64,000 nucleotides of DNA, from assembly GCA_963835245.1 (NCBI GenBank), contig CAWIEZ010000001.1, positions 156,543 through 220,542 on the forward strand. Reading direction: 5' to 3'. Made by a program: the position numbers and the translations under genes. The stretch comes from an uncultured Planctomycetota bacterium (lineage in GTDB: Bacteria; Planctomycetota; Planctomycetia; Gemmatales; Gemmataceae). Shown one piece after another: positions 1,184 to 56,251 of the stretch (positions are counted from its first letter, which is position 1; each line of letters opens with the position of its first letter). The notes beneath the pieces were generated by a model that did not search any database, was not told the origin of the DNA, and saw nothing but the letters and a program-made list of their open reading frames with translations.

Positions 1184-4100
1184 ATGCCGCACTGCCGACC
1201 GCTGCCGACGACGCTCCTTCCACTCGCCCTTGCTCTCTTCGTCCCCGCGTCGCCGCTCTCCGCCGCCGAGAATAGCGATTTTTTCGAGAACAAAGTGCGT
1301 CCCCTGCTGGCGCAGCACTGCTATCGCTGTCACTCTGGGCAAGCGAAGAAACTGCGCGGCGGTCTGCGCTTGGACAGCCGCGAGGCGATGCTGGCCGGCG
1401 GAGACAGCGGGCCGGCCCTCACGCCGCGACAGCCGGACAAAAGCCGGCTTATCGAAGCCGTCACTTACAAAAACGTCGAGTTGCAGATGCCGCCGCGCGG
1501 CAAATTGTCCGATGCCGACATCGCCGACCTGACAACCTGGGTCCAAATGGGCGCGCCGTGGCCGAAACAACCATCGTCCGGCGAGTCGAACATCAGTCGA
1601 GCCGCTTTCGATCTCAAGGAGCGCAAACGTACTCACTGGGCCTGGCAGCCGATCCGCTCGCAAACTCTTCCCAAGGTGCGCGATGCGAATTGGCCGCGCG
1701 ATTCGCTCGATCGCTTCATTCTCGCCAAGCTCGATGACAAGGGACTGTCACCGGCGAAACCTGCCGACAAGCGGACGCTTCTCCGCCGACTGTATTTCGA
1801 TCTGATCGGTCTGCCGCCGTCGCGGCCAGAGGTCGAGGCATTTCTGCGCGATACCTCGCCCGATGCGGTCGAGAAGGTCGTGGATCGTCTGTTGGCGTCG
1901 CCGCACTTCGGCGAACGCTGGGGCCGCCATTGGCTCGATCTCGTGCGCTACGCCGAGACGCGCGGCCACGAATTCGACTATGCCATCCCCAACGCCTATC
2001 AGTACCGCGATTACGTCATCCGGGCGCTGAACGCCGATGTTCCGTACAACCAATTCGTCCTCGAGCATCTCGCCGGCGACTTGCTGACAAACCCGCGCCG
2101 GCATCCGCAACAGGGGTTCAACGAATCGATCCTCGGCACCGGCTTTTGGTTCCTCGGCGAAGAAGTGCATTCGCCGGTGGACATTCGGCAAGATCAAGCC
2201 GACCGCTTCGACAACAAGGTCGATGTGCTGTCCAAGGCGTTTCTCGGCCTGACCGTCGCCTGCGCACGTTGCCACGATCACAAGTTCGATGCCATCTCCA
2301 CGAAGGATTATTACGCGCTGTTCGGCTTCCTCCAGAGCAGTCATTATCGACTGGCGCGTTTCGATTCGATGGAACACAATCGCCGCGTCGCCGCGGAACT
2401 GTGGCAACTGCGCGCGAAGAGCCGGGCGACGATTCAGAAAGCGTTGGCGGAAGCGCTGCGGCCGGGAGCGGAGCGACTGGCCGACTACCTATTGGCGGCG
2501 CGACGGCGATGTTGGCTCATGCGGATGCGCCGATGCGACGTAGCGGAGATCGCCCATGCGCACAAGCTCGATGCCGCCATTCTGGGCCAATGGATAAAGC
2601 ACCTGGCAACGGCGGCGCGCGATGAAAACGATCCGCTGCACGTCTGGGCGAAGCTCGCTGCCGATCCCGCCGCGAAGTTTAGCCACGATCCGAAGCGAGA
2701 CGCGGCTAAACGGACACAAATGATAATCGATTATGCCAACAGCAAGCCGGACGACTGGCTGACCGATGGGTTCGCTTTCGGTTCCGGTCCCGTGCGTCCG
2801 GGCGAATTGCACATCGAGGGCGATGCGGCCAAACCAGAACTGCACTTTCGCGAGTATGCTGCCGCCGAGAAAGATGCGGTTTGGGACGTGTTGAAGCCGG
2901 CTCGCGGCGCGGAGAACGATCCGGGAGTGTTGGGCAGCGTGATGCGCGCCGGCCGGACGATCCGCACGCCGACGTTCCCGCTGACCACCGGCAAGGTGTT
3001 CTATCTCGTCAAGGGCAGCGGCTTCGTCTACGCCGCCGTCGGTTCGCACGTCATGATTGCCGGTCCCTTGCACGGCGCAGCTGATCCGCACTGTCCATGC
3101 TGGCGAGCGTTTCCAGTGGATCGCACACGATCTCAGCGATTACAAGGGACAACGCATCCATCTGGAGTTCACGCCCATCGGCGACGCCGCTTTCGCCGTC
3201 GCGCAGGTGGTGCAGGGCGAACCGGCAGCGTTAGCTGCCGGGTTGGGCTTACCCGACAGCTTTGGCTTACCCGGCAGCTTTGGCTTACCCGGCAGCTTAC
3301 GCAGCCGGTTCGCCAACACCGGCTCTCTCGACACGCTAGCGCAGTCGTATCAACAGCTTTTCCTCGACACGCTCCGCGAACTGGCCGCCGATCACCTCAT
3401 CGGTACGGCCGATGCGGTCGATCGCGCCCGCCTGGTGAACTGGATGACGAAGCACGCCGCTCTTTTCGGTTGCTCTGCTCCTGCTAGTGAGGAAGCCCGC
3501 ACATTCCTTGTCGAGCAAGGCAAGATTGCCGACCGCATTCACAAAGAATCGCGCCTGTGCGTGGCGATGATCGATGGCAGTGGGGAAAATGAATATGTTT
3601 TTATCCGCGGATCGCACAAGGCGCACGGCGAAACCGTGCCGCGCCGTTTCTTGGAAGCGCTCGCCGGACCTGCTCCGCTGGCGGCTCTACGCGGCAGCGG
3701 TCGGCTGGAACTGGCTCGCCAAATGATCGATCCCGCCCTCGATCCGTTTCTGCCGCGCGTTGTCGTCAATCGCGTCTGGCATCACTTGTTCGGTCGCGGC
3801 ATCGTCGCTTCGACCGATAATTTCGGCGTCCTCGGCGAGCGGCCAACGCATCCCGAATTGCTCGATTACCTCGCCGATCGCTTCATCAAGGAAGGCTGGT
3901 CGATCAAGAGATTGATTCGCCATCTCGTATTGTCGAGCGCTTATCGCATGTCGAGCCAGCCGGACACGGCCGCTGATCGCACCGATCCCGGCAATCTGTT
4001 GCTGCACCGCATGCGCCTACGTCGTTTGCAGGGTGAAGCGATCCGCGATGCCATGCTATCTCTCTCCGGGCGTTTGGACAAACGCATGCACGGCCGTTCG

Positions 4101-4559
4101 GTGTTGGTGCATCTGACGGCGTTTCAGGAAGGGCGCGGCCGGCCCGCCAGCGGGCCGCTTGACGGCGACGGTCGCCGCAGTGTGTACTTGGCAGTGCGGC
4201 GCAATTTCCTGTCGCCGTTCCTGCTCGCCTTCGATACGCCGAGTCCCTTCTCGACCGTCGGCCGCCGCACTGTTTCCAATGTGCCGGCACAGTCGCTCAT
4301 TCTGCTCAACGATCCGTTCGTGCATCAGCAAGCGTCGCTCTGGGCGAAGCGCGTCCTCGCCGAGCCTGGCCCGACCCGCGAGCGAATCATTCGCATGTAT
4401 GAAAGCGCTTTCACCCGTCCACCGACAGAATCAGAGTTGGCGGCGTGCGTGGCTTTCCTCGCTCGCCAGCCCGCAACGCAAGCAAGGGACGATCCCGCTG
4501 TGTGGGCGGACCTCGCGCATGTGCTGTTCAACGTCAAGGAATTTATTTTCGTGAACTGA
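1184..4559 (+). CDS. PSCyt1/DUF1549/DUF1553 family protein (Planctomycete cytochrome-C-domain protein); apparent frameshift near 3075-3085
   Basis: N-terminus has signal + CxxCH-type motif (HCYRCHSGQAKKLRGGLRLDS), then DUF1549-like (RDYVIRALNADVPYNQF) and DUF1553-like (VNRVWHHLFGRGIVASTDNFG) regions. The 1184 frame turns to nonsense after ~3080 and the 3057 frame continues the family. Paired with the downstream DUF1501 gene, as is typical. Confidence 0.8.
3245..3298 (+). repeat. 18-bp x3 in-frame tandem repeat (GLPDSF/GLPGSF/GLPGS) inside the PSCyt gene
   Basis: ggcttacccgacagcttt / ggcttacccggcagcttt / ggcttacccggcagctta, read directly from the sequence. Confidence 0.85.
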
Positions 4560-4577: not shown

Positions 4578-5990
4578 ATGCACTGCGGACGCTTCATCCC
4601 AACGCCCTTGAGCCGACGCGACATGCTGTTGCGTTGCGCCAACGGCTTCGGCGCCGTCGCGCTGTCGGCGCTGCTCGCCGAAGAGGGTCATTCCGCCGCC
4701 GCGCTGTCCGCGCCGCACTTCGCTGCCCGTGCTCGCAACATCATCTTTCTCTACATGGACGGCGGACCCTCGCAGGTGGATACCTTCGATTACAAGCCGC
4801 TCTTGGAGAAATATCACGGCCGCGATCCGCACAGCATCTTCAAGGTCGAGCCGACGCAGTTCAACAATGTCGGCCGCGTGATGGCCTCGCCGTGGAAGTT
4901 CCGCCGTCGCGGCCAAAGCGGTCTGTGGGTCAGCGATCTGTTTCCGCACGTCGCCGAGTGCATCGACGATCTCTGCGTCATCCGCTCGATGGTGTCGAAG
5001 TTCCCGGAGCATACTAGCGCCAATTATTTCCTCCACACCGGCTCCGGCGTGCAAGGTCGGCCGAGCATGGGCGCGTGGGTCAGCTACGGCTTGGGCAGCC
5101 TCAACAAGAACCTGCCCGGCTTCATCGTCCTCAACGGCGGCCTCATTCCGCCGGGCGGTGCGGACAATTTCAACAGCGGCTTCCTGCCCGCCGCTTATCA
5201 AGGATCGATCTTCCGCTCCACCGATCCGCCCGTGGCCAACATCCGCCGCTTGGAAGCGACCGACGAACAGCAGCGACGCAAACTCAATCTGCTGCGCCGC
5301 CTCGACGACAGCGTCGCGGCGCGCGGCGGACACGACGATGCCATCGAGTCGGCCATCGCCAATTACGAGACCGCCTACCGCATGCAGTCGGCCGTGCCGG
5401 AACTGATGGATCTCAAGGGCGAAAGCGCGGCGACGAAAAAACTGTATGGACTCGATGCGGAATACGCACCGACGCGCATCTTCGCCACGGAATGCCTCAT
5501 CGCTCGCCGCTTGATCGAACGCGGAGCGCGCTTCATCGAGCTAACCTGCCCCAGTGTAGGCGTCGATCGCTGGGATCAACACGGCGGATTGAAGGACGGA
5601 CACGAGAAGAACGCTCGCGCCGTCGATCAACCGATTGCCGCGCTCTTAAAAGACCTTAAAAGTCGCGGAATGCTGGAAGACACGCTGGTTCTCTGGGGCG
5701 GCGAGTTCGGCCGCACGCCGTTCGCGCAGGGCAGCGATGGCCGCGATCACGATCAATTCGGCTTCACGATCTGGATGGCCGGCGGCGGCGTCAAGGGCGG
5801 ATATGTCTACGGCGAGACCGATGAGTTCGGTTACAAAGTCGTCGCCGACAAGGTCGAGATCCACGATCTGCACGCTACGCTGCTGCATCTCTTGGGCGTC
5901 GATCACAAACGTCTGACGGTGCGCTTCGGCGGCCGCGATATGCGGCTGACCGATGTGCATGGCGAAATCGTCAAGGACATACTCTCCTGA
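4578..5990 (+). CDS. DUF1501 family protein (sulfatase-like, Tat signal)
   Basis: 470 aa. RRDML twin-arginine N-terminus and FLYMDGGPSQVDTFDYKP... motifs characteristic of DUF1501. Sits immediately downstream of the PSCyt/DUF1553 gene. Confidence 0.85.
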   Translation: MHCGRFIPTPLSRRDMLLRCANGFGAVALSALLAEEGHSAAALSAPHFAARARNIIFLYMDGGPSQVDTFDYKPLLEKYHGRDPHSIFKVEPTQFNNVGRVMASPWKFRRRGQSGLWVSDLFPHVAECIDDLCVIRSMVSKFPEHTSANYFLHTGSGVQGRPSMGAWVSYGLGSLNKNLPGFIVLNGGLIPPGGADNFNSGFLPAAYQGSIFRSTDPPVANIRRLEATDEQQRRKLNLLRRLDDSVAARGGHDDAIESAIANYETAYRMQSAVPELMDLKGESAATKKLYGLDAEYAPTRIFATECLIARRLIERGARFIELTCPSVGVDRWDQHGGLKDGHEKNARAVDQPIAALLKDLKSRGMLEDTLVLWGGEFGRTPFAQGSDGRDHDQFGFTIWMAGGGVKGGYVYGETDEFGYKVVADKVEIHDLHATLLHLLGVDHKRLTVRFGGRDMRLTDVHGEIVKDILS

Positions 5991-10814: not shown

Positions 10815-11027
10815 CTTTTTGCCTCGCAATTGTCGTAATTAGACATTCGGAGCCACAACCTTGCGGCTTCCTTCTCGCAGATCGCAGGCTATTGTGGATA
10901 GCCTCGTCAAGTGAATCAAGCGCTATTTCTCTCGTCCCCACGCGGAGCGCGAGAACGAGATGGTTGCAGTCACGGTTGCATCCGGTTATGATCGCTGCCG
11001 AGTCGCCGACTTTCCCGGAGAACTACC

Positions 11028-14370: not shown

Positions 14371-14451
14371 GTAGGGTGGGTCGAGCGCAGCGAGACCCAC
14401 CGGGGAGTGGCGGGTTCCCCGGTGGGTCTCGCTGCGCTCGACCCACCCTAC
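14371..14451. repeat. 36-bp perfect inverted repeat (9-nt loop) in a convergent intergenic region
   Basis: gtagggtgggtcgagcgcagcgagacccaccgggga / loop gtggcgggt / exact reverse complement. Lies at the left edge of the lower-GC island. Confidence 0.9.
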
Positions 14452-14967: not shown

Positions 14968-15016
14968 GTCAGATGCTCCTTTCAGGGGCTTTGCAATAGA
15001 ACTGCCAAAATGACAG

Positions 15017-15092
15017 GCGTTCTCTTGCAGGCCAGTTCGTTTTCTTTCAACTGAATGGGTTCTCTTGCAGATGAACGGGTTTTCTTGCAAGC
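15017..15092. repeat. array A: 4 direct repeats of core TTCTCTTGCA(G/A) at exact 20-bp spacing
   Basis: Cores at 15020, 15040 (degenerate TTTCTTTCAA), 15060, 15080. 27-53 bp upstream of the minus-strand gene start at 14967. Confidence 0.85.
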
Positions 15093-16104: not shown

Positions 16105-17379
16105 TCAGTTCAAGAGGGCAGGGACGGCTGGCTTCTCCGCAGGCCAGAACACCGGCTCGACGCCTAACTCGATCTGCGATTGGTGGATGACACAGATGTT
16201 GTGGCAGAGGAACTTGCACAGCACTTCGTTTTTCATCGCCACGTCCGTCCTGCTCCGCACATGGTCGCGGAACTTCGCCTTCACCATGCTGAACGTACTC
16301 TCCGCATTGCTGCGCTGATGGTAATGACTCAGGAAGTCCTCGCGGTGAAGCTGGTAGTACAGGTACATTTTCTCCCACAGGCTTCCTGCCTCACCGGGTT
16401 GGCTGTTGCACTTGAAGGGAATGAAGGCCGTGCCGCCAAGACGCTGCACCAGTTCAAGGTTGTCGTGGCTGAGGTAGCCCTTGTCGGCGGGCACTTCCTT
16501 GACCGTGAAGTTCTTGGCCGTGGTTTTCACGAGGTCTTCAAAGAGCGGACAGTCGTTCGCGTCCCGGTCCAAAATCTCAACCGACGTGACGATGTTCGTC
16601 TTGACGCCGCAGATGGCATGAGCCTTCACCCAATCATGCCCGCTCCGCGTTGTGCCGTACTTCTCGTCGAACCACCGCACGAAGCGGCTGGTGGAGAAGC
16701 CGGTGCTGTCGGGGGCGAAGACGGTTTCGACGGCCCGGAGCGGCAGACTGCTCTGGACGATGAGTTGCTTGAGAAGCGGCGTCATCGGCTCGTATTCGAG
16801 ATAGGCACACACGCTGACGCTGTGCATCTTGTGGGAGAGGTAGCCTTTGGCGTAGGCATGTTTCAGGTCGGTGTCGAAGCGTCGGCTGGAAAAGGTCGTG
16901 TAGACCTTGAGGGCTGAGGCGAACACCATGTCCGACATCTCGGTGCGTTTCCGACCCGTCTTGGGCTGCGGGGCGGGAGGCACGGTGCGGCACAGGTCGA
17001 ACAGGAGCGCTTGAAAGCGGTCCTTCTCGGTCATCTGGGCTTCGTTGTACTTCGGCCAGTCCTGCTTGTAGGTCTTCTTCTCGGTGAACGTGATCGAGCG
17101 GGTTTCCGTCACCGTGCCGTCTGGGTTTTGTTCGCGGCGAATGGTGATTTCGACGGCGTACAGGTGCTTGCACTTGTGACCTTCTTCCTTGTGGTCAGGA
17201 CAGGTGCAGGTACAGTGGGTCGGGTCTACTTCGTACTTTTTGTCGTTCTTGGACTGCGACGGCACGAGCCAGATGCCATCATCGCGGCGCTGAAGCTTGC
17301 AGAGCGCGGCGATGATGATGCCGCGCTCCTCGCGTAGCTTGGCAGACGTGGGCTTGGGGGTGGTGGTTTGAGCGGTCAT
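16105..17379 (-). CDS. IS4/IS5-superfamily DDE transposase with N-terminal SWIM zinc finger (copy 1, intact)
   Basis: SWIM CxCxnCxH (CTCTCPDHKEEGHKCKHLYAV). DDE_Tnp_1 signatures ADKGYLSH and HQRSNAESTFSMVKAKF (R..E..F..K). 424 aa. Confidence 0.8.
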   Translation of the reverse strand: MTAQTTTPKPTSAKLREERGIIIAALCKLQRRDDGIWLVPSQSKNDKKYEVDPTHCTCTCPDHKEEGHKCKHLYAVEITIRREQNPDGTVTETRSITFTEKKTYKQDWPKYNEAQMTEKDRFQALLFDLCRTVPPAPQPKTGRKRTEMSDMVFASALKVYTTFSSRRFDTDLKHAYAKGYLSHKMHSVSVCAYLEYEPMTPLLKQLIVQSSLPLRAVETVFAPDSTGFSTSRFVRWFDEKYGTTRSGHDWVKAHAICGVKTNIVTSVEILDRDANDCPLFEDLVKTTAKNFTVKEVPADKGYLSHDNLELVQRLGGTAFIPFKCNSQPGEAGSLWEKMYLYYQLHREDFLSHYHQRSNAESTFSMVKAKFRDHVRSRTDVAMKNEVLCKFLCHNICVIHQSQIELGVEPVFWPAEKPAVPALLN

Positions 17380-21665: not shown

Positions 21666-21757
21666 GTTCTCTTGCAAATTGACGAGTTCTCTTGCAGGTT
21701 CAGGAATTCTGTTGCAACCTGACGGGTTGCCTTGCAAAATGGTCTTCTATTGCAAAG
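21663..21757. repeat. array B: 5 direct repeats (TTCTCTTGCAA / TTCTCTTGCAG / TTCTGTTGCAA / TTGCCTTGCAA / TTCTATTGCAA) at a 20-bp period
   Basis: Cores at 21668, 21688, 21708, 21728, 21745. Same orientation as array A. Confidence 0.9.
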
Positions 21758-21810
21758 CCCCTTTCAGGGAGAAACGGTGAGCGATTCGGATAATTCCTTG
21801 ATAATATCCC

Positions 21811-22004
21811 GATAAGAGCGGCGTTGCAAGGAAACGCCATTCTGCAATAGAACTCTCCCACTTGCAAGAAAACTCCCTCGCCAACCTTATCTACCTGAAC
21901 AGGCGCGCACATCTTAAATAATTCTTCCATTTCTTGCAACCAGTTCTATTGACACCCCAAGAACACTTCTTACAATCAAGAAACAGGAAGAAATGTTCTT
22001 GGGG
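21811..22004. repeat. array B2: further TTGCAAG-type copies in both orientations, the 12-mer CGATAAGAGCGG, and a CCCCAAGAACA…TGTTCTTGGGG hairpin
   Basis: gcgttgcaaggaaacgc (itself a palindrome), cacttgcaagaaaactcc, atttcttgcaacc. The exact 12-mer cgataagagcgg is shared with 26132-26143. Hairpin at 21955-22004. Confidence 0.7.
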
Positions 22005-23079: not shown

Positions 23080-23767
23080 ATGGACCTCCGAGAGTTAAAG
23101 GGCTTGGAACTGGCGGCGCGGGTGAAAATCACCTACGTCGATGGCATCTGGTACGTTCCCTCGCAATCCGGCAAAGGCAGGTACGAGGTTCGGCTGAGTC
23201 CCAACCCAGAATCCTGCACCTGCGACGACTTCCAGCTTCGCCAGAAGCCATGCAAGCACATTTACGCCGCCCGCAACGTCCGCGAGCGGGAGCATGGCGG
23301 CGAGGCCGTGGTCATCGACACGGACACATTGCCGAAAAAGAAGTCCTCCAAGCAGGACTGGCCGTTGTACAACAAGGCGCAGATGACGGAGTTCAAGCGG
23401 TTCCTCGTCCTCCTCCACGATCTCGTCCAAGGCGTTGAGGAGCCGCCACAGCCGCGCACTGGGCGGCGGCGGACGCTCATGGCCGACATGGTGTACGCTT
23501 CGGCCCTCAAAGTCTACATGACCTTTGCCAGTCGCCGCTTTGACTTCGCCTTGGATTGGGCCAAAGAGAAGGGCTACATCTCGCAAAGGAAGATGCACCC
23601 TGTTAGCGTCTGCGCCTTCCTTGAAAGCGACCTGATGACCCCGGTGCTCCAGAAGCTCATCGTCCAGAGCAGCCTGCCGCTTGTATCCATCGAGAGCATT
23701 TTCGCGCCGGACTCTAGCGGGTTCAGCACGTCGCGGTACGTCCGCTGGTACGACGAGAAGTATGGTG
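23080..23767 (+). pseudogene. SWIM-DDE transposase copy 2, truncated by IS3-family insertion
   Basis: Colinear with copy 1 (about 60 percent identity by eye) through …YVRWYDEKYG, then diverges exactly at the IS3 left terminal inverted repeat (23768). The DDE C-terminal ~180 aa is absent. Confidence 0.7.
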
Positions 23768-25373: not shown

Positions 25374-25783
25374 TGCAGTTCTCCCGGTTGGCGGGGCGCA
25401 TGAAAAAGGAGCGCCGAACACTTGGCCGCTCCAGTGGCCCCCGCCAAGGGGCGCAGACGAACAGCACAAGACCCGACGCCCCTCTTGCGAGGGGCGTGCA
25501 AGCCAAGGGCTGCTTCGTCTGGATACAAGAGCGGTTGCCCGCTCAGGTTGGCGGTTTCACTGGAAGCAGTTCTTGACGCACGCGCGTCAATCAGGTTGTC
25601 CCCGTGGCCCTCGCAACGGTCAAAGCTCGTCGTCCTCCTTCAATGCGCAAAACGGTAATCGGCTGGCACTCGCCAGCCGTCACGATGATAACCGAGCAGA
25701 GAGCACTGTTCAAGAAGCCAGCGAAAAATCGGCTACCGACACTCCTTTATGGAGTACCGAGGCATAAACTACCGGGAGATCTG

Positions 25784-26062
25784 ATGATGAAAAGCAGGTG
25801 CATCATGGAAAAGACGCTGAAAGTGCCGTTCGAGGAGATCAATCTAGTCCGCATTCGCTGCAAACAGTGCGGGGACGCTGCCATCGAGATGCCGCTCTCG
25901 GCACTGGTGAACGGGCCGTTGATGTGTCCGGGGTGCGCGAAGGATTTGCGGAAGTCGGCTGCGAACGTGGACAAAGCGGTGACAGACATAGCGAACGGTA
26001 TTGTAGCTCTGAAGGACAATCCCATGATCGAACTTCAGTTCGTGCTGCCATTCGACCAGTGA
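25784..26062 (+). CDS. small zinc-ribbon protein (CxxC…CxxC)
   Basis: IRCKQCG…LMCPGCAKDL. GGGAGA RBS before the ATGATGAAA. Confidence 0.45.
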   Translation: MMKSRCIMEKTLKVPFEEINLVRIRCKQCGDAAIEMPLSALVNGPLMCPGCAKDLRKSAANVDKAVTDIANGIVALKDNPMIELQFVLPFDQ

Positions 26063-26067
26063 GGTAG

Positions 26068-26144
26068 CTTTGCAAGAAAACTCAGCCGTATGCAAGAGAA
26101 CTCATCGTTTTTCGGACGTTTTCTTGCAACGCCGATAAGAGCGG
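26068..26144. repeat. array C: TTGCAAG-type copies (2 on bottom strand, 20 bp apart; 1 on top) plus the CGATAAGAGCGG 12-mer
   Basis: ctttgcaagaaaactc (26068), gtatgcaagagaactc (26088), cgttttcttgcaacg-ccgataagagcgg (26117-26144). Confidence 0.8.
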
Positions 26145-26197
26145 AAGAAACCACTTCAATTTGCTCCTCACCACAGGCCATTCCCACGCTTTCTTCT

Positions 26198-26314
26198 CGT
26201 TCCCAAGCTCTGCTTGGGAACGCTGGGCGAGAAGCTCCGCTTCCCGTCCCACGCAGCGGCCAGCCGCGAAGCAGAGCTTCGCAACCGTGCGTTCCCAAGC
26301 TCAGCTTGGGAACG
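26198..26314. repeat. REP-like element family F1 (three hairpins, ~120 bp): CGTTCCCAAGCTCTGCTTGGGAACG … CGTTCCCAAGCTCAGCTTGGGAACG
   Basis: Outer hairpins at 26198-26222 and 26290-26314, with a central weaker inverted repeat. The same architecture (ACGC/GCGT in place of AAGC/GCTT) is at 46584-46693. Confidence 0.85.
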
Positions 26315-26498
26315 AGAGAGCAAGAGCCACCCCCAGAATCGGCGCAGGCACCCTGCCGCTCGCGGAGTTGATTGCACCACTGGCGAACGAGTGCGGCTCG
26401 GCATAGGATGGCAGGCGCGGTTCGGAGTAAAGTCAGTTATCCGGCCAGTACCCCCTTCGATATTCCGTCCCGCCCTGTTCCACAAGGGAGACGCCAAC

Positions 26499-30784: not shown

Positions 30785-30838
30785 GAGCCGCGACCGTCAG
30801 GGAGCGGGGGCAGCATCGCTCCCTAACGGTCGCGGCTC
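30785..30838. repeat. REP-like hairpin family F2: GAGCCGCGACCGTCAGGGAGCG / loop / CGCTCCCTAACGGTCGCGGCTC
   Basis: 22-bp arms with 1 mismatch. Near-identical copy at 45871-45924. Lies between the flotillin stop and the DUF2321 gene start. Confidence 0.85.
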
Positions 30839-33155: not shown

Positions 33156-33561
33156 AGTGACACCTGTGGCGGCAATGCCACGAAAGAGAAGGGGGCTGCA
33201 CTTCGTCTTGAGAGCGAGACGGGTGTGCCCTTTCACGTTGGCCCGAACACCGCATCCGGGTCCGCCTACGAGGTTAGCTGACGGGCTAGGATGCGAAAGT
33301 ATCCCGGTCCCCGTGGACCTTCGCCCCGAGAGGCCGGCTCTCACCAGCCTGATGGTTCCCCCGTTCGCGCATGCACCGCAGCGCGATTCGGCTGCACTGT
33401 AGAGTTATTCTAGTTCCGCGTTCACTTCTTGCAAAAGAAATCACTTTTTCCCATCTGTTCGTCCGTTCAGAGGGGACGATTCTTTCGACACGCAAGGAAT
33501 CTTCGCCACTACAATGGGATTGGTTTCCGGTGATTACTTTTCCTTACGATGCGGAGGAGAC

Positions 33562-40378: not shown

Positions 40379-40450
40379 CTTTGCCAGCCCGCAGCGCCAG
40401 CAAGGGTGAGTCATCCCTTGCTGGCGCTGCGGGCTGGCAAAGTTTTAGCG
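40379..40450 (+). terminator. REP-like hairpin family F3 (28-bp arms) followed by a TTTT tract; candidate bidirectional terminator between convergent genes
   Basis: CTTTGCCAGCCCGCAGCGCCAGCAAGGG-tgagtcat-CCCTTGCTGGCGCTGCGGGCTGGCAAAG-TTTTAG. Related copy at 56195-56243. Confidence 0.6.
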
Positions 40451-45160: not shown

Positions 45161-46540
45161 TTACACCATTAGCAGACTCGCCACTAGCACGGCGATGATT
45201 CCGGCCAGCAGCGGAAGCGCGAGACGGCGCACCAGCTGCAAGGGATGGACCTCGGCCAGCGAAGCGGACATCAGCGTCACCGCCGCCACTGGCGACAGAG
45301 TGCGCCCGGCCGACGCCGACAGCGCGATCAACGCGCCCAGCCGCAGCGGATCGTAGCCGAGCCGATGAGCCGGCTCGACAAAGAACACGAATAAACTCTG
45401 CGTCGCCGCCATGCCGGAGCCGCACAGCAGAGCGAACAACAGCGGCAAAATAACCGCCGCCGGTGTCAGCAAGCTCGGCCATGTTTGCAGCGCCTGAGCG
45501 AGCAACGTCGCCAAGCCGATGAGCTTGATTGCCTCGCCGAAACAATTGGCGGCGACGATCAACGAGATGATCCGTGCGAAGGCGAAGCCGACACCCTCGA
45601 AGAACGTCTCCGCGGTGCGCGGCGACTTGCCGGCGATCCGTCAGCGCGGCGGCGGCCACGCCGAGGAGCATGGCCGCGCCGATCAGCCGGCTCTCGAAAA
45701 CCGCGCGCAATTCCGACTCCGTGCCCTTGAAGTGGGCCACGTCCACCAGCCAAGTAACCGGCACAGAAAACAGACGAAACGGCTCCGGAAAGGCGGTTAA
45801 AAACAACAACACAATCGGCACGAACGGCATGACCGCCTTAAAAGGATTGATGCGGAACGGATCTTCCTCAGAGCCGCGACCGTCGGGGAGCGGTTTGGCC
45901 TCCGCTCCCTGACGGTCGCGGCTCAGCTTGGATTCGCGCACGGACTCAGCAGCCAGAAAACCACCGTCGCCACGAACAGTTCGATAACCAATAGAGGCAG
46001 CGCGTGGACAATCCAACGGTCGGCCGAGAACGGCACCTTCGCGGCCTCGCTGACGGTGCGCACTTCCGGCGCACCGGGGTTCAGCAAATCGCCGCCCAGC
46101 GAGGAGCCGAGCAGCAACGCCGCGCCGATGGTGACGGGAGAAATCCGCGCCGTCCGCAACAGCGGCACTAGCACCGTGCCCACCAACACCGCCGTACTCA
46201 TCTGGCTGATGACGGGGACGTTCACCAGGACGCCGACAAGCACGGCGCCCGGAATCAACAAGGGCCGTACTCGCCGCATGGGCCGCACCAGCAGATGAAC
46301 GAGGTGTTGATCGCAGCCGGTTTGCCGCAGAACGTAAGCGAATCCGAGCGAGCAACCCAGAGGAATGGCGAACTGCTCGTTGACCAGTGTGGTTAGGAAC
46401 TTTTGCACGATGACATCCGGCCGGCCGGCCAAACAGCCCAACGCCAGCGCCGCCAACAACAACGTCAGACGCACATCGGCGCGGCGCACGATGGCCAAGA
46501 TGACCACGACGATCACGAACAAGCCCGCGGATAACGTCAT
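45161..46540 (-). pseudogene. ArsB/NhaD-superfamily anion permease, disrupted (two or more frame changes; REP-F2 hairpin at the break)
   Basis: Hydrophobic multi-TM segments in three different frames (46540-45923, ~45850-45600, 45562-45161). The stop of the first piece lies inside the F2 hairpin at 45871-45924. Confidence 0.55.
45871..45924. repeat. REP-like hairpin family F2, second copy
   Basis: GAGCCGCGACCGTCGGGGAGCGG-tttggcct-CCGCTCCCTGACGGTCGCGGCTC. Compare 30785-30838. Confidence 0.85.
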
Positions 46541-46583
46541 GTGCAAAATCCGAAAACAAGGCGGGAAACATCTCATTCATCCT

Positions 46584-46693
46584 CGTTCCCACGCTCCGCG
46601 TGGGAACGCACGTCTGGACGCTCTGCGTCCCGTACCGCCGAAACGCGACGCGGAGCGTCGCCTGCTTGCGTTCCCACGCGGAGCGTGGGAACG
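46584..46693. repeat. REP-like element family F1, second locus: CGTTCCCACGCTCCGCGTGGGAACG … CGTTCCCACGCGGAGCGTGGGAACG
   Basis: Outer hairpins at 46584-46608 and 46669-46693, with a central GACGCTCTGCGTC…GACGCGGAGCGTC inverted repeat. Lies in the divergent intergenic region between the permease and pepF. Confidence 0.85.
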
Positions 46694-46773
46694 AGAAGGC
46701 GGCGAACATCTCATTTGATATTATGCCTTTGAATTGCTTTCGGATTTCGGATTTTGAATTGAAGGATCAAACC

Positions 46774-49439: not shown

Positions 49440-52400
49440 TCACTTCCGCGACGACTCTTTTTCCGCAGCGACCTTCGCCTCATTCAGTTTCTTACGCCAC
49501 TTGGCCGCTTCATCCTTTTTGTCCATCGCCTCGTACATTTGAACCAGGCGTTCGAGCGCCTCGGTCAAGTGGACCTTGCTTTGCGGCGGAATTTTCGCCT
49601 CACGCTGCCTCATGCCCTGGTAACTGGACAGTAGCAGCGGTTCGGCGTCGGTGAATTTCTTCTGTCCCAGCAGAGCGCCGCCCAGCGAAGAGTGAGCATG
49701 GAAAGTCTGCCAATCGTCGGGCTGCTTCGTCTGGTGGATCTTGAGAGCGTCGCGCAACATCGGCTCGGCGTCGGCGTATTTGTGTTGCCGCAGCAGACAG
49801 GAAGCCATCCACATCATCTGACCGACCGTGCGCGGATCGGCGGAGCCGAATTGTCGCCGCGCTTGCTCCAGCGCAGCGCGGCAGAGCGGTTCGGCCTTGG
49901 CGAATTGTCCGGCGATGCCGTACGCCTCGATCAGATTGCCGCGGCAGGCGAGCGTGTGGGGATGATTAGCGCCGAGCTTCGCCGCCAGCTGCGGGAGAGT
50001 CTGCTCGAAGAGCAGGATAGCCTCGGTGGTGCGGCCGGCGGATTGATACGTGAGAGCCAGGTTGTTGCGGGAGCGGAGTGTATCGGCATGGTCGGCGCCC
50101 ATTTTGTCCTCCATCTGCTTAAGGGTCTGCTCAGACAGGTGGAGAGCCTCGGCAGTGCGGCCGGCGGATCGGTAAGCCTCGGCCAAGTCGTTGGCGGATC
50201 GGAGCGTATCGAGATGGTCGGCGCCGAGCTTGATCCCCTTCTGCTTGAAAGTCTGTTCGTGCAGACGGACGGCTTCGGCGGTGCGGCCGGCGGACAGGTA
50301 CGTATTGGCCAGATTAGCGCGGCAGGTGAGCGTAGTCGGATGGTTGGCGCCGAGTTTGGCCTCCATCTGCTGGAGGGTCTGATCGAAGAGGCGGAGAGCA
50401 TTGTCGGTGTGGCCGGCCGAGTGATACGCCCAGGCCAAGTTGTGACGGGAGAGGAGAGTATTGGGATGATCGCCGCCCAGCTGGACCTCCTTCTGCTTGA
50501 CGATCTGCTCGTAGAGGCGGAGCCTCGGCGGTGCGGCCGGCAGACAGGTACACCCCCGCCAGGTTGTGGCGTAATTGGAGCGTGTCGGCATGGTCGCCGC
50601 CGAGTTGGGCCTCCTTTTGCTTGACGATCTGCTCGTAGAGGCGGAGCGCCTCGTCGGTGCGGCCGGCGGATTGATACGCCAACGCCAAGCCGCCGCGGGA
50701 CCGGATTGTGTCAGGGTGGTCGGGTCCGAGCTTGGCCTCCCGCTGCTTGAGATTCTGCTCGTAGAGGCGGAGTGCCTCATCGGTGCGGCCGGCTGATTGA
50801 TAGGCCAGAGCCAAATTGCCGCGGGATTTGAGCGGGTCGGCATGGTCGGCACCGAGTTGGGCCTCGCGCAACGCCAACGCTCGCTTGTATTGCTCGATCC
50901 CCAAAGTGAACTCGCCCAGATACCAGTAGGTCGCGCCCAAAGTGTTACGAATCTCCGCTTCGACTAGCGGACGATCCTTGAAAGCATCGGCGATAGTCGG
51001 CGCTGCCGCGTCCACCGCCTTGCGCAAGGTCACGTCATTTCCCTGACCACCGCCCTGACCCTTCGGCCGGCCCGCCGACAGAACCTTGGTGCGGAAGAAA
51101 ATCAGCACCGCTTTGGTGTCCGCCTCCGATTGCCTGGTCTCTCGCTCGGCCTTGACCGCGCGATCGCGTTCCGTCGCCGTGGCCTTCCGCGCTTCCTCCG
51201 TCCGATCGCGCTGATCCGTGGCCTCCTTTTCCGCATGCACGGCCCGGTTCCGTTCGTCCAGCGCCCATACGGCCAGTGAGGTACTCACTATCGCAGCCAC
51301 GACGACAAGCAGCAGCAACGCCGCCACCATCGCCAAGCCGCGGCGATGCTTCCAGGCCAGCTTGCGCAGCCGATACCGCGCCGACGGCGGACCTGCCTCT
51401 ACCGGCTCGTCGGCCAGATAGCGTTCGATGTCGCGCGCCAAGCCGTTGGCCGTCTCATAGCGGCGGCTGCGGTCTTTCTCCAGCGCCTTCATGACGATCC
51501 AGTCTACTTCGCCGCGCAACGCCTTGACCAGCGCCGCCGGCTCCATATGACGCTGCGCCGAAACCGTCGCCAACGAATCCTTCGACCCACTCAAGCGCGT
51601 ACTCGGACGCGGCGGCTCTTCCTCGCGGATCAGACGCAACACCTCCACGATCGATGTTTCGTTGAGACGCTGCCGCGACAACGGCGTACTCCCCGTCAAC
51701 AGTTCGTACAGCAACACGCCCAGCGAATAAATGTCGCTGCGTGTGTCGATGTCTAGGGCATTGAACTCGGCTTGCTCCGGACTCATGTACTCCAACGTGC
51801 CCACAATACCGCCAAAGCCGGTGAACAGCGTGCGCTCCGTCAGCTTTCCGCCCGTCGCCTTGGCCACGCCGAAATCAATCACCTTGGGCACCGGCTTGCC
51901 GTCGTAAGCTGCGATGAGGACGTTGCTGGGCTTGATGTCGCGGTGGATGATGCCTTTCTGATGGGCGTGTTGAATCGCCTGGCAGACCGGCACGAACAAC
52001 TCTAGCCGTTGCCGCGGCGTCAATCGCTGTTCATCGCAATACTTGGTGATGGGGATGCCCTTGACCAACTCCATGACGAAATAGGGACGGCCGCTGGCGG
52101 TGGTGTCGGCCTCCAACACCTTGGCGATATTGGGATGATCCATCAGTGCCAACGCTTGCCGTTCTTGCTCGAAGCGGGCGATGATTTGCGCCGAATCCAT
52201 GCCGGCCTTGATGACCTTCAAGGCGACCATACGGCGCACGGGTTGTTGTTGTTCGGCCATGAAGACGACGCCCATGCCGCCTTCGCCGATCTGTTGCAGC
52301 AGTTTGTACGGCCCGATGCGGCTGCCCACCCCTTCCAGGGGAGCGGCGGACAAATCGCTGGCATCGAGCCACTGTCCGGGGGCGACGTTGCTGGTCAGCG

Positions 52401-52588
52401 CCCGGCGTGGTGTGTTTGTCCAGAAAGTTGTCGGCCTCATCGTAGGCATGCAACAACGCCTCGACCCGTTGGCGCAGTGGGGCATTGTCGCCGCAGGCTT
52501 CGTCGAGATAGGCCCGTCGTTCTTCCGGCGCGGTGATTTCGTGAGCGCGATCGAAGACGGACTTGGCGGTCGGCAAGAGGTTGTCCAC
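49440..52588 (-). CDS. Ser/Thr protein kinase with TM segment and C-terminal TPR array (copy 1); frameshifts near 50520 and 52400
   Basis: GTG at 52588 with AGGAG RBS. The kinase domain is near-identical to the downstream paralog. The TPR region at 50500-50560 is scrambled. Confidence 0.7.
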
Positions 52589-55600: not shown

Positions 55601-55854
55601 ATGCGGCTGCCCACCCCTTCCAGGGGAGCGGCGGACAAATCGCTGGCATCGAGCCACTGTCCGGGCGAGACATCGCTGGTGGCGCCGGCGTCGGGCTTGT
55701 CCAGAAAACTGCCGGCTTGCTCGTGAGCGCGCAGCAACGCCTCGACGCGGCGGCGCAGTTCGACATCGCCGCCGCAGGCTTGCTCCAGGAAGGCGGCGCG
55801 CTCGGCGGCATCGCGGCGCGCCAGCGCTTCGGCGAACAAAGATTCCTCGGTCAT
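52618..55854 (-). CDS. Ser/Thr protein kinase with TM segment and ~12 TPR repeats (copy 2, intact)
   Basis: MTEESLFAEALARRDAAERAAFLEQACGGD…, Hanks motifs ([16 protein letters not shown]). Near-identical 42-aa TPR units (…[34 protein letters not shown]…). Confidence 0.85.
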   Translation of the reverse strand: MTEESLFAEALARRDAAERAAFLEQACGGDVELRRRVEALLRAHEQAGSFLDKPDAGATSDVSPGQWLDASDLSAAPLEGVGSRIGPYKLLQQIGEGGMGVVFMAEQQQPVRRMVALKIIKAGMDSAQVIARFEAERQALALMDHPNIAKVLDAGTTQTGRPYFVMELVKGIPITKYCDEQRLTPKQRLELFAPVCQAIQHAHQKGIIHRDIKPSNVLIAAYDGKPVPKVIDFGVAKATGQKLTERTLFTGFGGIVGTLEYMSPEQAEFNALDIDTRSDIYSLGVLLYELLTGSTPLSRQRIKDAAILEVLRLIREEEPPRPSTRLSESKDSLASVSAQRHLEPAGLLKAMRGEVDWMVMKALEKDRSRRYDTANGLAHDIQRYLADEPVEAGPPSARYRLRKLAWKHRRGLATASALLLLVVVGAVASTLLAVWAMKERARATMAETEAKDQRDEAVAARTATAEQRDKAVESEKDAKAVLAYFQDKVLSAGRPAGQEGGLGNKVMLRQAVDAAEPDIAKSFADRPLVEASIRNTLGLTYWYLGEAVLAIGQHERALALRETQLGADHPHTFISRNNLALAYYSAGRIAEAIRPHEQTLKQYEAKLGPDHPHTLTSRNNLANAYWSAGRTADAIRLHEQIIKQREAKLGTDHPDTLQSRNNLAAAYWSAGRSAEAIRLYEQALKQMESKLGPDHADTLTSRNNLAEVYRVAGRITDAIRLHEQTLKQKEAKLGPDHPDTFQSRNNLALAYWSAGRAADAIRLHEQTLKQKESKLGTDHPDTLTSRNNLALAYWSVGRTEEAIRLHEQNLKQREVKLGPDHPHTLLSRTGLAMAYWSAGRITEAIPLLEQTLKQSEAKLGTDHPDTLQVMANLAINYRDAGRFKDAIPLLEEALKRGRNRPGGSPAQLPWILGALAKTYERAGQFAKSESIHRDALEQARRQFGADDPRTAAPMAVLGLNLLHQHKFTDAEPLLRDCLKVRLAKQPDDWATFNAQSLLGAALVGQKKYADAEPLLLKGYDGMKQREAKIPPQGKIRLTEALERLVQLYEAMDKKEDAAKWRKQLEQARQAKTKNAAKK
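53230..54200. repeat. ~126-bp near-identical tandem repeats (TPR-coding) inside the kinase gene
   Basis: Recurrent …gagggtctgttcgtgcaggcggatggcgtcggcg…gtacgccagggccaggttgttgcggga… units. A similar block is in copy 1 (49900-50850). Confidence 0.8.
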
Positions 55855-56194
55855 GGCGGACCCTCGCTGTTGGAGACGGCAAAAATTGACAGCTACATCC
55901 ATCCATGCGAAAAGCGGGGCGGAAAAGCCTCACGGCGTTGACAATTTTTCGTCGCCGTCGTGGCCGCGCGTGAGTTCGACATGAAGCCAGACGCGCGTAG
56001 GTCCACCCCAGGCGAAGATAGGCTTCGTGAACGAGAGCTGTGGCGTCGAGCGTTGGTCCGGGTTTCTCGTGACCAGCGGCAATAAATGGTCGGCCGCGCG
56101 CGCATCGCCGGCTTCTAGGGCGTTCAAAAATTGGATCGCGTCGCTCATGTTCGTCGAGCATACCGCGATCCGCCGGCAATGCCAACTTTTTCCA

Positions 56195-56243
56195 CCAGCC
56201 CGCCGCGCCAGCAAGGGATGCCCTTGCTGGCGCGGCGGGCTGG
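56195..56243. repeat. REP-like hairpin family F3, second copy: CCAGCCCGCCGCGCCAGCAAGGG-atg-CCCTTGCTGGCGCGGCGGGCTGG
   Basis: 23-bp perfect arms, immediately downstream of the SGNH hydrolase stop. Related to 40379-40442. Confidence 0.85.
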
Positions 56244-56251
56244 CAAGCCGG

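What the first reader, a model, noticed from the sequence alone, without database searches (positions are those of the whole stretch)
26198..26314. REP-like element family F1: ~120-bp units built from three hairpins (CGTTCCCA[C/A]GC-TC[C/T]GC-G/TTGGGAACG), two loci
The same three-hairpin architecture occurs at 26198-26314 and 46584-46693, with compensatory arm changes (AAGC/GCTT versus ACGC/GCGT) that preserve pairing. That argues for selection on structure.

Both copies sit in intergenic regions upstream of genes (sulfatase; permease/pepF divergent region).
Basis: seen in the sequence. Interest (0 to 1): 0.55.

Follow-up and report, generated by a model that had tools for sequence, protein, structure and literature searches.

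The report
REP doublets of a RAYT transposase family
The two ~115-120-bp palindromic units are gene-less copies of the two hairpin-bearing ends of a small tyrosine-transposase (RAYT) element found in many bacterial phyla, so they are an ordinary kind of bacterial repeat, though from a family that has hardly been described.

Summary
Window 26196-26316 and 46582-46695 are two copies of one nested palindrome with unrelated flanks, and a decayed solo hairpin lies at 10930-10960.

The anatomy needs correcting. Each unit has four small hairpins (H1, H2, spacer, H3, H4), not three. As a single strand the whole unit folds best into one long hairpin (z -9 to -12).

In other genomes the same H1+H2 ... 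H3+H4 arrangement brackets a 177-aa REP-associated tyrosine transposase (NCBIfam NF047646). Of 80 metagenomic loci chosen only by RAYT protein similarity, 67 of 75 have the GTTCCCA...TGGGAAC hairpin just upstream and 63 of 74 just downstream. One RAYT from a Gemmataceae MAG, the window's own lineage, has an end identical to window 46669-46695.

The window units are therefore REPIN/BIME-like, non-autonomous derivatives of that element's ends. No RAYT gene lies in the window.

Covariation is strong: 94% of cells paired and 350 double changes, against 110 in shuffles. It fits single-stranded DNA hairpins recognised by the transposase rather than a regulatory RNA.

This is a known kind of element in a poorly described family, and interest is low to moderate.

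The parts
26196..26316 (+). Unit 1, a complete REP doublet (REPIN-like). Layout: CT-H1-linker-H2-24 nt spacer-H3-linker-H4-AG. Apical variant AAGC/GCTT.
   Evidence: I12 arms 26195-26223 / 26289-26317. Folds. Covariance-model half-unit hits 26195-26253(+) at 65.9 bits and 26258-26317(-) at 67.2 bits.
26198..26222 (+). Unit 1 H1: CGTTCCCAAGC-TCT-GCTTGGGAACG, a left-type outer hairpin.
   Evidence: exact match.
26231..26243 (+). Unit 1 H2: GAAGC-TCC-GCTTC, an inner hairpin that shares the apex of H1.
   Evidence: Alignment A2, row 1.
26267..26281 (+). Unit 1 H3: CGAAGC-AGA-GCTTCG, the inverted counterpart of H2.
   Evidence: row 2, minus strand.
26290..26314 (+). Unit 1 H4: CGTTCCCAAGC-TCA-GCTTGGGAACG, a right-type outer hairpin.
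46582..46695 (+). Unit 2, a complete REP doublet with the same layout, a 15-nt spacer and apical variant ACGC/GCGT.
   Evidence: I5 arms 46582-46610 / 46667-46695, 100% complementary. Folds. Covariance-model hits 46581-46639(+) at 67.7 bits and 46637-46696(-) at 67.0 bits.
46584..46608 (+). Unit 2 H1: CGTTCCCACGC-TCC-GCGTGGGAACG.
46616..46630 (+). Unit 2 H2: GGACGC-TCT-GCGTCC.
46646..46660 (+). Unit 2 H3: CGACGC-GGA-GCGTCG.
46669..46693 (+). Unit 2 H4: CGTTCCCACGC-GGA-GCGTGGGAACG. With the following AG it is identical to the right end of a Gemmataceae RAYT element (L203).
10930..10960 (.). Degenerate solo hairpin, TCT-CGTCCCCACGCGGAGCGCGAGAACG-AGA. It has 3 mismatches to the family hairpin and no H2 partner, so it is probably a decayed REP.
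   Evidence: Its fold is weak (-7.9 kcal/mol, z -1.5) and the covariance model gives only 9.3 bits.

Best explanation
Each unit is a non-autonomous REP doublet, of the REPIN/BIME or 'TIR-dimer' type. It consists of the left end (H1+H2) and the right end (H3+H4) of a roughly 0.7-kb element, joined head to head with the gene missing.

The complete form of that element carries a 177-aa REP-associated tyrosine transposase (RAYT, an HUH/Y1 enzyme). Complete elements have this layout: cccCTC-H1-GCACTTGTC-H2-(~20 nt)-RAYT gene-H3-GACAAGTGC-H4-GAGgg.

Inferred mechanism, by analogy with E. coli TnpA-REP and IS200/IS605 TnpA:
- When the DNA is single-stranded, for example on the lagging-strand template, the palindromes fold into hairpins.
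- A RAYT encoded elsewhere in the genome recognises the conserved CGTTCCCA stem and its flanks.
- It cuts and rejoins at the unit borders, so the doublet can be excised, copied or deleted in trans.

Shown here: the anatomy, the dispersal, the compensatory conservation of both hairpins, and the tight two-way association with one RAYT clade, including in Gemmataceae.

Inferred, not shown: catalysis, the cleavage site, current mobility, and the presence of a cognate RAYT in this particular genome.

Any effect on the neighbouring genes would be a by-product. Unit 2 sits 5-41 nt upstream of the transporter start codon, depending on which ATG is used, and 78 nt upstream of pepF.
For: **1. RAYT genes flanked by the same hairpins.** In L089 (Chthoniobacteraceae) the ORF 4754-5287 scores 108 bits on NCBIfam NF047646, REP-associated tyrosine transposase (cutoff 80). 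It has HMH and YLHDNP motifs. Its only PDB relative is E. coli TnpA-REP, 4ER8. It is bracketed by H1+H2 and H3+H4. The same arrangement occurs in:
- L055 (Thermoguttaceae) and L014 (Pseudomonadales);
- L203 (Gemmataceae MAG GCA_035252845.1) and L206 (8.8-Mb contig).

**2. Reciprocal test.** Eighty metagenomic loci were chosen by RAYT protein similarity alone. The hairpin lies within 200 nt upstream in 67 of 75 loci, most often at -62. It lies within 200 nt downstream in 63 of 74. The end consensus is conserved. The two ends carry the same upper stem in 60 of 62 loci, against 29 +/- 3 in shuffles.

**3. Covariation over 150 half-units.**
- 94.2% of cells are paired, against 81.0 +/- 0.4 in shuffles and at most 42.5% when the partner is slid.
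- 350 cells carry a change on both sides, against 110 +/- 7.5.
- All 6 pairs of H2, which no search pattern constrained, covary.

**4. Strand asymmetry.** Left-type hairpins have TCY loops and right-type hairpins have RGA loops.

**5. Inner partner.** The apical 7-mer recurs within 45 nt on the inner side in 77 of 117 hairpins, against 9 of 117 on the outer side.

**6. Defined end.** In L089 a second, 5'-truncated RAYT copy is 91.6% identical in nucleotides, and the similarity ends just past H4, within 2 nt of the GAG.

**7. Location.** Hairpins are depleted from ORFs: 45% fall in ORFs that cover 86% of bases, by a crude gene call.

**8. Fold.** The whole unit folds as one long hairpin, as REPINs do.

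**9. Prior record.** Quentin et al. 2018, Table S1, lists GTATGCATTCCCACGCAAAGCATGGGAACGAG as the REP flanking the TnpA-Y1 gene ACL04004.1 (chromosome code DalkA01, which I read as Desulfatibacillum alkenivorans).
Against: - No RAYT gene lies in the 64-kb window. tblastn found none, and an HMM built from RAYT-clade sequences scored at best E = 1.9. The rest of the source genome could not be read, so a cognate enzyme in this organism is assumed, not shown.
- Only two units and one remnant were seen in 64 kb. High copy number in this genome is not demonstrated.
- The canonical 5' GTAG/GTGG tag of classical REPs is absent.
- No empty-site versus filled-site comparison was possible, because synteny around pepF is not kept in the nearest retrievable relatives. 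Mobility is therefore inferred.
- The lower stem, CGTTCCCA, was fixed by my own search patterns. Its 'conservation' in the pattern-derived set is by construction. Only the RAYT-derived set tests it independently, and there too the hairpins were located with a GTTCCCA...TGGGAAC pattern allowing up to 2 mismatches.
Confidence: 0.85

Rival explanations
1. The units are primarily cis-acting RNA structures, such as a 5'-UTR attenuator, an mRNA stabiliser or terminator, or a small RNA, selected for their effect on the adjacent genes.
For: - The RNA folds are very stable, -82.8 and -96.8 kcal/mol, z -9.4 and -12.3.
- Unit 2 ends 5 nt from the first ATG of the transporter ORF. A weak promoter-like site for that strand lies beyond the unit, so the unit could sit in a 5' UTR.
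- REPs in other bacteria are reported to affect mRNA stability (literature cited in PMC3733652).
Against: - Both strands fold equally well. That is what a DNA palindrome gives, not what a strand-specific RNA gives.
- There is no Rfam match above noise.
- There is no T-run terminator.
- The same hairpins flank RAYT genes as inverted ends at fixed distances, which gene-specific regulation does not explain.
- The neighbouring genes are unrelated across loci.
Confidence: 0.06
2. The units are miniature derivatives (PATE-like) of a classical IS200/IS605 insertion sequence rather than of a RAYT element.
For: The associated protein is a Y1 HUH enzyme and weakly matches Pfam Y1_Tnp (22 bits against a cutoff of 23). 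The complete element has defined ends and occurs as a second, truncated copy in L089, which is IS-like behaviour.
Against: - The protein passes the NCBIfam RAYT model (108 bits against a cutoff of 80) but fails the IS200 model (18.8 bits against 55).
- It has the class-2 Y---NP signature of TnpA-REP described in PMC6006769.
- The ends are long inverted repeats, whereas IS200/IS605 ends are not inverted repeats (established knowledge of that family).
- No tnpB gene was noticed next to the RAYT in the few loci read in full; the other loci were not inspected for one.
Confidence: 0.05
3. The two units result from a simple local or segmental duplication, or are chance palindromes, and do not belong to a dispersed family.
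For: Only two full units are present in the 64 kb that could be examined.
Against: - The flanks are unrelated, and similarity ends at CTCGTT...AACGAG.
- The two copies differ by concerted compensatory changes.
- The pattern is expected 0.02 times by chance.
- The same architecture recurs in other genomes across several phyla.
Confidence: 0.01
4. The units are MITEs of a DDE-type insertion sequence, mobilised through terminal inverted repeats with target-site duplication.
For: The units have terminal inverted repeats and no coding capacity. The window contains a DDE transposase gene (16105-17379, PF01609).
Against: - No direct repeats flank either unit.
- The ends of the units do not resemble anything near the DDE gene.
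- The only gene found between such ends in other genomes is the Y1 RAYT.
Confidence: 0.02

Closest known systems
REPINs / BIMEs with their RAYT (TnpA-REP). Examples: E. coli REP/BIME with YafM, and Pseudomonas fluorescens SBW25 REPINs (Bertels & Rainey 2011, PMC3116915; Nunvar 2010, PMC2817692).
   Same: - Two inverted palindromic repeats separated by a short spacer, folding into one long hairpin.
- Extragenic location and no coding capacity.
- The same repeats flank a single small HUH/Y1 transposase gene of the RAYT family in inverted orientation.
- Several sequence variants coexist in one genome.
   Different: - There is no 5' GTAG/GTGG tetranucleotide. The conserved flanks are CTC on the outer side and GC(A) on the inner side of a left-type hairpin.
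- Each 'REP' is a pair of hairpins (H1+H2) about 55 nt long, not one 20-40-nt palindrome.
- The stem sequence CGTTCCCA is shared across phyla, whereas classical REPs are described as species-specific (PMC6006769).
TIRtrons / TIRYTs with 'double palindromic TIRs' and their TIR-repeat families (Di Nocera et al. 2013, PMC3733652).
   Same: RAYT-like genes are flanked by long terminal inverted repeats that contain self-complementary tracts. The TIRs also occur as moderately abundant, dimer-forming repeat families elsewhere in the genome.
   Different: Most TIRYTs belong to the long subclass 2.1, with a C-terminal HTH domain and a GGGGWSAS motif in the TIR. The protein here is short (177 aa) and the TIR lacks that motif. 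The figures of that paper could not be read, so identity with one of its listed families cannot be excluded.
The REP listed for the TnpA-Y1 gene ACL04004.1 (chromosome code DalkA01, read as Desulfatibacillum alkenivorans) in Quentin et al. 2018, Table S1 (PMC6006769).
   Same: The consensus GTATGCATTCCCACGCAAAGCATGGGAACGAG is the right-type hairpin of this family, with its GAG tail.
   Different: It is a single, manually found instance whose protein was left without a subclass ('0/?'). No H2 partner, doublet form or cross-phylum distribution is mentioned in the parts of the paper and the supplementary table that I read (several sections and part 1 of 8 of Table S1).
IS200/IS605 insertion sequences and their PATE/MITE derivatives.
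   Same: A Y1 HUH enzyme acts on subterminal DNA hairpins, presumably through single-stranded intermediates. Gene-less derivatives keep only the ends.
   Different: - The ends here are inverted repeats.
- The protein fits the RAYT model and not the IS200 model.
- No tnpB was noticed beside the RAYT in the few loci read in full.

Membership tests
REP / REPIN (BIME) elements | Short imperfect palindromes able to form stem-loops. | tested here: met
   The outer hairpins have an 11-bp stem and 3-nt loop. The inner hairpins have a 5-6-bp stem. 94.2% of cells are paired over 150 half-units.
REP / REPIN (BIME) elements | Two REPs in inverted orientation with a short spacer, forming one long hairpin (REPIN). 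| tested here: met
   The minimum-energy fold of both units pairs H1 with H4 and H2 with H3, z -9.3 to -12.3.
REP / REPIN (BIME) elements | Many copies dispersed in one genome, mostly extragenic. | tested here: inconclusive
   The window holds 2 units and 1 remnant in 64 kb, all intergenic. The source genome beyond the window could not be read. Other genomes gave several separate loci each: Thermoguttaceae SMAG_U14240 gave L020, L055, L066 and L117, and Oscillatoria PCC 10802 gave L006, L016, L046 and L095. ORF depletion was 45% against 86%.
REP / REPIN (BIME) elements | The same repeats flank a RAYT gene (REPtron). | tested here: met
   The hairpin is upstream in 67 of 75 and downstream in 63 of 74 RAYT loci. 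L089, L055, L014, L203 and L206 show it too. This was not observed in the window itself.
REP / REPIN (BIME) elements | A conserved 5' GTAG / GT[AG]G tetranucleotide at the foot of the hairpin. | tested here: not met
   The consensus flanks are cccCTC-[hairpin]-GCaCTTGTC and gacaAGTGC-[hairpin]-GAGgg. There is no GTAG or GTGG. The nearest resemblance is GTGC on the right-type strand.
RAYT / TnpA-REP, class 2 of TnpA-Y1 (for the associated protein in related loci) | HUH motif, catalytic Tyr in a Y---NP motif, and a score above the curated RAYT model threshold. | tested here: met
   HMH/HLH and Y(L/I)HDNP are present. NF047646 scores 108.2 bits against a cutoff of 80 for L089. L055 scores 79.3 bits, just under the cutoff. 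4ER8 is the only PDB hit. Sources name clade members RayT.
RAYT / TnpA-REP, class 2 of TnpA-Y1 (for the associated protein in related loci) | Single copy, vertically inherited, not itself mobile (the Bertels/Rainey view of RAYTs). | not testable with these tools
   Whole genomes could not be scanned. L089 holds a second, truncated copy with 91.6% nucleotide identity, which hints at the opposite.
IS200/IS605 | A TnpA that fits the IS200 model, asymmetric left and right ends, and often tnpB. | tested here: not met
   NF033573 scores 18.8 bits against a cutoff of 55. The ends are inverted repeats. No tnpB-sized neighbour was noticed in L089, L055, L203 or L206.
Known RNA families (Rfam 15) | A score at or above the gathering threshold of any family. 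| tested here: not met
   The best hits are mir-3180 at 24.7-26.2 bits against a gathering score of 99. Nothing reaches gathering threshold at these loci.

The most novel reading that the evidence does not exclude
This RAYT/REP lineage may not behave like the classical 'domesticated, vertically inherited, species-specific' REPIN-RAYT systems. It could instead be an autonomous, horizontally spreading Y1 element, a discrete ~0.7-kb unit with ~55-nt double-hairpin inverted ends, that spawns MITE-like doublets.

Three observations fit this reading:
- The same CGTTCCCA stem and end architecture occur with RAYTs of 50-78% identity in Planctomycetota, Verrucomicrobiota, Pseudomonadota, Cyanobacteriota and Desulfobacterota.
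- A truncated second copy exists in one contig.
- The apical stem-loop varies in concert in H1, H2, H3 and H4 of a unit. It could act as a specificity code that lets several orthogonal subfamilies, such as AAGC and ACGC in this window, coexist in one genome.
Probability: 0.25. Interest if true: 0.5.

Novelty: new member of a known kind. Interest (0 to 1): 0.28.

Why it matters
For annotating this genome, it explains two conspicuous intergenic palindromes as selfish or commensal REP doublets. They need not be treated as candidate riboswitches, small RNAs or operators.

More generally, it defines the cognate DNA for a large, mostly unannotated clade of 177-aa RAYTs. That DNA is a double-hairpin end with a CGTTCCCA stem and CTC/GAG borders. 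The clade has at least 1339 protein clusters, most of them without a Pfam hit.

The family lacks the GTAG tag. Its stem sequence recurs across several phyla, though that was checked only with searches that themselves required the stem. It would therefore be a convenient system for asking how Y1 enzymes read hairpin DNA, and whether REP systems are always vertically inherited.

Tried and rejected
- **Rfam**, at gathering threshold and at permissive E-values, gave only noise at both loci. A known RNA family is rejected.
- **Terminator and promoter scans** found no T-run terminator. One weak promoter-like site was not pursued.
- **Reaching the source genome.** Exact-protein look-ups of pepF, another window ORF and P0001 (100% identical to the window pepF, on a 1.76-Mb NCBI contig) all returned nothing. 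Copy number and the cognate RAYT in this organism remain unknown.
- **Empty-site comparison.** The pepF neighbourhoods of the nearest retrievable relatives (87% identity, L201 and L202) are not syntenic upstream of pepF. L202 has only a degenerate solo hairpin there.
- **RAYT in the window.** None was found.
- **CGTC-tagged REPs** (Di Nocera 2013) were considered because the hairpin starts with CGTT/CGTC. They were rejected. In that family the tag is unpaired, stems are 8-9 bp with A/T pairs at the first positions, and no transposase is associated.
- **Integron attC sites** were considered from memory and rejected because the R''/R' core consensus does not fit. This was not tested further.
- **Full-text search** for the hairpin sequence found only unrelated primer matches. 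Three REP papers do not contain it in their text.

Full report
**Observation**

CGTTCCCAAGC-TCT/TCA-GCTTGGGAACG lies at 26198-26222 and 26290-26314. CGTTCCCACGC-TCC/GGA-GCGTGGGAACG lies at 46584-46608 and 46669-46693. The degenerate pattern gave 5 matches in the window at up to 3 mismatches, against 0.02 expected from shuffles. The fifth match is a decayed solo copy at 10933-10957, flanked by TCT...AGA.

Repeat finding shows that similarity between the two loci is limited to the units themselves and stops at (T)CTCGTT...AACGAG(A) (families D8, D12, I5, I12). This is not a segmental duplication.

**Anatomy**

H2 is 26231-26243 (GAAGC-TCC-GCTTC) and 46616-46630 (GGACGC-TCT-GCGTCC). H3 is 26267-26281 and 46646-46660.

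All four hairpins of unit 1 carry the apex AAGC/GCTT. All four of unit 2 carry ACGC/GCGT.

Loops on the left half are TCY. On the right half they are RGA, apart from one TCA in unit 1. Each unit is therefore a nested inverted repeat with a defined polarity.

Folded as single-stranded DNA or RNA, the minimum-energy structure of each unit is one long hairpin, with H1 pairing H4 and H2 pairing H3. DNA energies are -49.6 and -59.9 kcal/mol (z -9.3 and -11.1). RNA energies are -82.8 and -96.8 kcal/mol (z -9.4 and -12.3). The complementary strands fold equally well.

**Context**

- Unit 1 lies between a 152-aa ORF with no Pfam match (25604-26062, +) and a sulfatase gene (PF00884).
- Unit 2 lies between a divergent DcuC/CitMHS-like transporter ORF (45923-46576, minus; first ATG 5 nt from the unit, a likelier start 41 nt away) and pepF (M3 peptidase, ATG 46774).
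- No intrinsic-terminator-like site is present.
- Nothing in Rfam matches above noise.
- The window is planctomycetal. It has a PSCyt1/PSCyt2 plus DUF1501 gene pair, an ECF-sigma-WD40 fusion and TPR kinases. The best pepF relatives are annotated Gemmataceae.

**Related sequences**

A scan of one genome per species for CGTTCCCA-N9-TGGGAACG stopped at its 120-locus limit. Hits came from Planctomycetota, Verrucomicrobiota, Cyanobacteriota, Pseudomonas and other Gammaproteobacteria, Desulfobacterota and others. They include isolates and complete genomes, with several loci from single genomes.

The nine central bases were left free in that pattern. Even so, they form a 3-bp stem and 3-nt loop in about 90% of 175 hairpins, using many different base pairs. 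Loop polarity follows flank polarity. The apical 7-mer recurs within 45 nt on the inner side in 77 of 117 hairpins, against 9 of 117 on the outer side. So an H2 partner is the rule.

**The key result**

In L089 (Chthoniobacteraceae) the H1+H2 and H3+H4 halves are separated by a 177-aa ORF rather than by about 20 nt. That ORF:
- passes the NCBIfam model for REP-associated tyrosine transposase (108 bits, cutoff 80);
- carries HMH and YLHDNP motifs;
- has E. coli TnpA-REP (4ER8) as its only solved relative.

The same arrangement occurs in L055 (Thermoguttaceae) and L014 (Pseudomonadales).

I then ran the reciprocal test. Eighty metagenomic loci were selected only by similarity to these proteins. 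The hairpin lies within 200 nt upstream in 67 of 75 loci, typically at -62. It lies within 200 nt downstream in 63 of 74. The conserved layout is cccCTC-H1-GCaCTTGTC-H2-~20 nt-ATG...stop-H3-gGACAAGTGC-H4-GAGgg. The upper stems at the two ends match in 60 of 62 loci.

A RAYT of this clade from a Gemmataceae MAG (P0147, L203) has a right end, CGTTCCCACGCGGAGCGTGGGAACGAG, identical to window 46669-46695. An 8.8-Mb contig (L206) shows both a flanked RAYT and a separate gene-less doublet.

The clade is large, with at least 1339 clusters at E <= 1e-10. JGI already labels members 'REP element-mobilizing transposase RayT'.

The window itself has no RAYT.

**Covariation**

On an alignment of 150 distinct half-units (4 from the window, 73 pattern-derived, 73 RAYT-derived):
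- 94.2% of cells form standard pairs, against 81.0 +/- 0.4 in shuffles and at most 42.5% when partners are slid.
- 350 cells carry a change on both sides, against 110 +/- 7.5.
- All six pairs of H2, which no search constrained, covary.
- The H1 and H2 apices are identical in 86 of 150 units, against 21.8 +/- 4.2 in shuffles.

Shared ancestry inflates these numbers, and the lower stem of H1 was fixed by my search patterns. The upper stem and H2 are the informative parts.

A covariance model of the half-unit finds only the four half-units in the window. They score 65.9-67.7 bits, partly by construction because they were among the sequences the model was built from. The next hit scores 14.5 bits, and the solo remnant scores 9.3 bits.

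**Interpretation**

The units are REPIN/BIME-like doublets. They are the two ends of a RAYT element with the gene deleted, presumably acted on in trans by a RAYT encoded elsewhere.

This explains several features together:
- the sharp borders;
- the polarity;
- the equal folding of both strands;
- the compensatory conservation, since the enzyme family works on single-stranded DNA hairpins;
- the intergenic bias: 45% of hairpins lie in crude ORFs that cover 86% of bases;
- the coexistence of variants.

A second, 5'-truncated RAYT copy in L089 has similarity that ends just past H4, within 2 nt of the GAG. This supports a discrete element with that terminus.

Catalysis, the cleavage site, present-day mobility and the existence of the enzyme in this genome are inferences.

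**Comparison with the literature**

Classical REPs have a 5' GT[AG]G tag and are described as species-specific (PMC6006769; PMC3733652). This family has no such tag, and its stem is shared across phyla.

It is closer in form to the 'TIRtrons' with double palindromic TIRs of Di Nocera et al.. However, the protein is short and lacks the features of subclass 2.1.

One instance of this very hairpin is listed for the TnpA-Y1 gene ACL04004.1 in Table S1 of Quentin et al. 2018 (chromosome code DalkA01, which I read as Desulfatibacillum alkenivorans). Its protein was left unclassified.

I found no text describing the family as such. Figures could not be read.

**Verdict**

This is a member of a known kind, the REP/RAYT systems, from a poorly described family. 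Interest is low to moderate.

Noticed in passing
window 14371-14451: A canonical GTAG-tagged REP doublet. GTAGGGTGGGTCGAGCGCAGCGAGACCCACCGGGGA and its perfect inverted copy are separated by 9 nt (I3). It resembles the GTAGGGTGGGT... REPs listed under the chromosome code PlimA01 (which I take to be Planctopirus limnophila) in Quentin 2018, Table S1. At least two unrelated REP families therefore coexist in this genome.
   Followed up: partly
window 30785-30838 and 45871-45924: A 54-nt palindrome family, GAGCCGCGACCGTCAGGGAGCGG...CCGCTCCCTGACGGTCGCGGCTC (I2). The second copy lies inside a DcuC/CitMHS-like transporter gene. The N-terminal ORF (45923-46576, minus) stops at the element, and the rest of the protein continues in other frames. 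This is either an intragenic insertion or a pseudogene.
   Followed up: partly
window 40379-40442, 4465-4492, 56221-56246: A third palindromic repeat family, CTTTGCCAGCCCGCAGCGCCAGCAAGGG, seen once as a perfect 28-nt inverted pair and twice as single arms (I7, I19, I20).
   Followed up: no
window 14992-15089, 21666-21873, 26071-26128: The motif GTTYTCTTGCA gives 14 hits against 1.76 expected, in clusters with 20-nt spacing and mixed orientation. The first two clusters bracket a region that holds a DDE transposase gene (16105-17379, minus; PF01609), like arrays of transposase-binding sites at transposon ends. The third cluster lies 67 nt upstream of unit 1.
   Followed up: partly
window 16655-16830 and 23590-23765: A 176-nt inverted repeat at 72% identity (I1). 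One arm lies inside the DDE transposase gene. The other lies near ORFs at 23.1-24.1 kb, suggesting a second, diverged transposase copy on the other strand.
   Followed up: no
window 33248-33403 (minus): A c-di-AMP (ydaO-type) riboswitch, 64.6 bits against a gathering score of 38. It lies at the 5' end of a long ORF with an SPFH/Band 7 domain.
   Followed up: no
window 49893-50947 and 53197-54279: A 126-nt tandem periodicity (D1-D3). It corresponds to TPR_12/TPR_10 repeats in two paralogous Ser/Thr kinase genes, 50314-52485 and 52618-55902, both on the minus strand.
   Followed up: yes
L202 about 3855-3885 (9.3-Mb JGI contig; pepF 87% identical to the window's): A degenerate solo hairpin, CGTTCTCGCGCGGGCGTGGGAACGAGG, lies about 130 nt upstream of pepF, although the gene upstream differs from the window's. 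It may be an old or independent insertion at a similar place.
   Followed up: no
L089 6497-6760: A second, 5'-truncated RAYT copy with 91.6% nucleotide identity over 238 nt. It keeps H3+H4, and the similarity ends just past H4, within 2 nt of the GAG. This hints that the whole RAYT element can be copied.
   Followed up: partly
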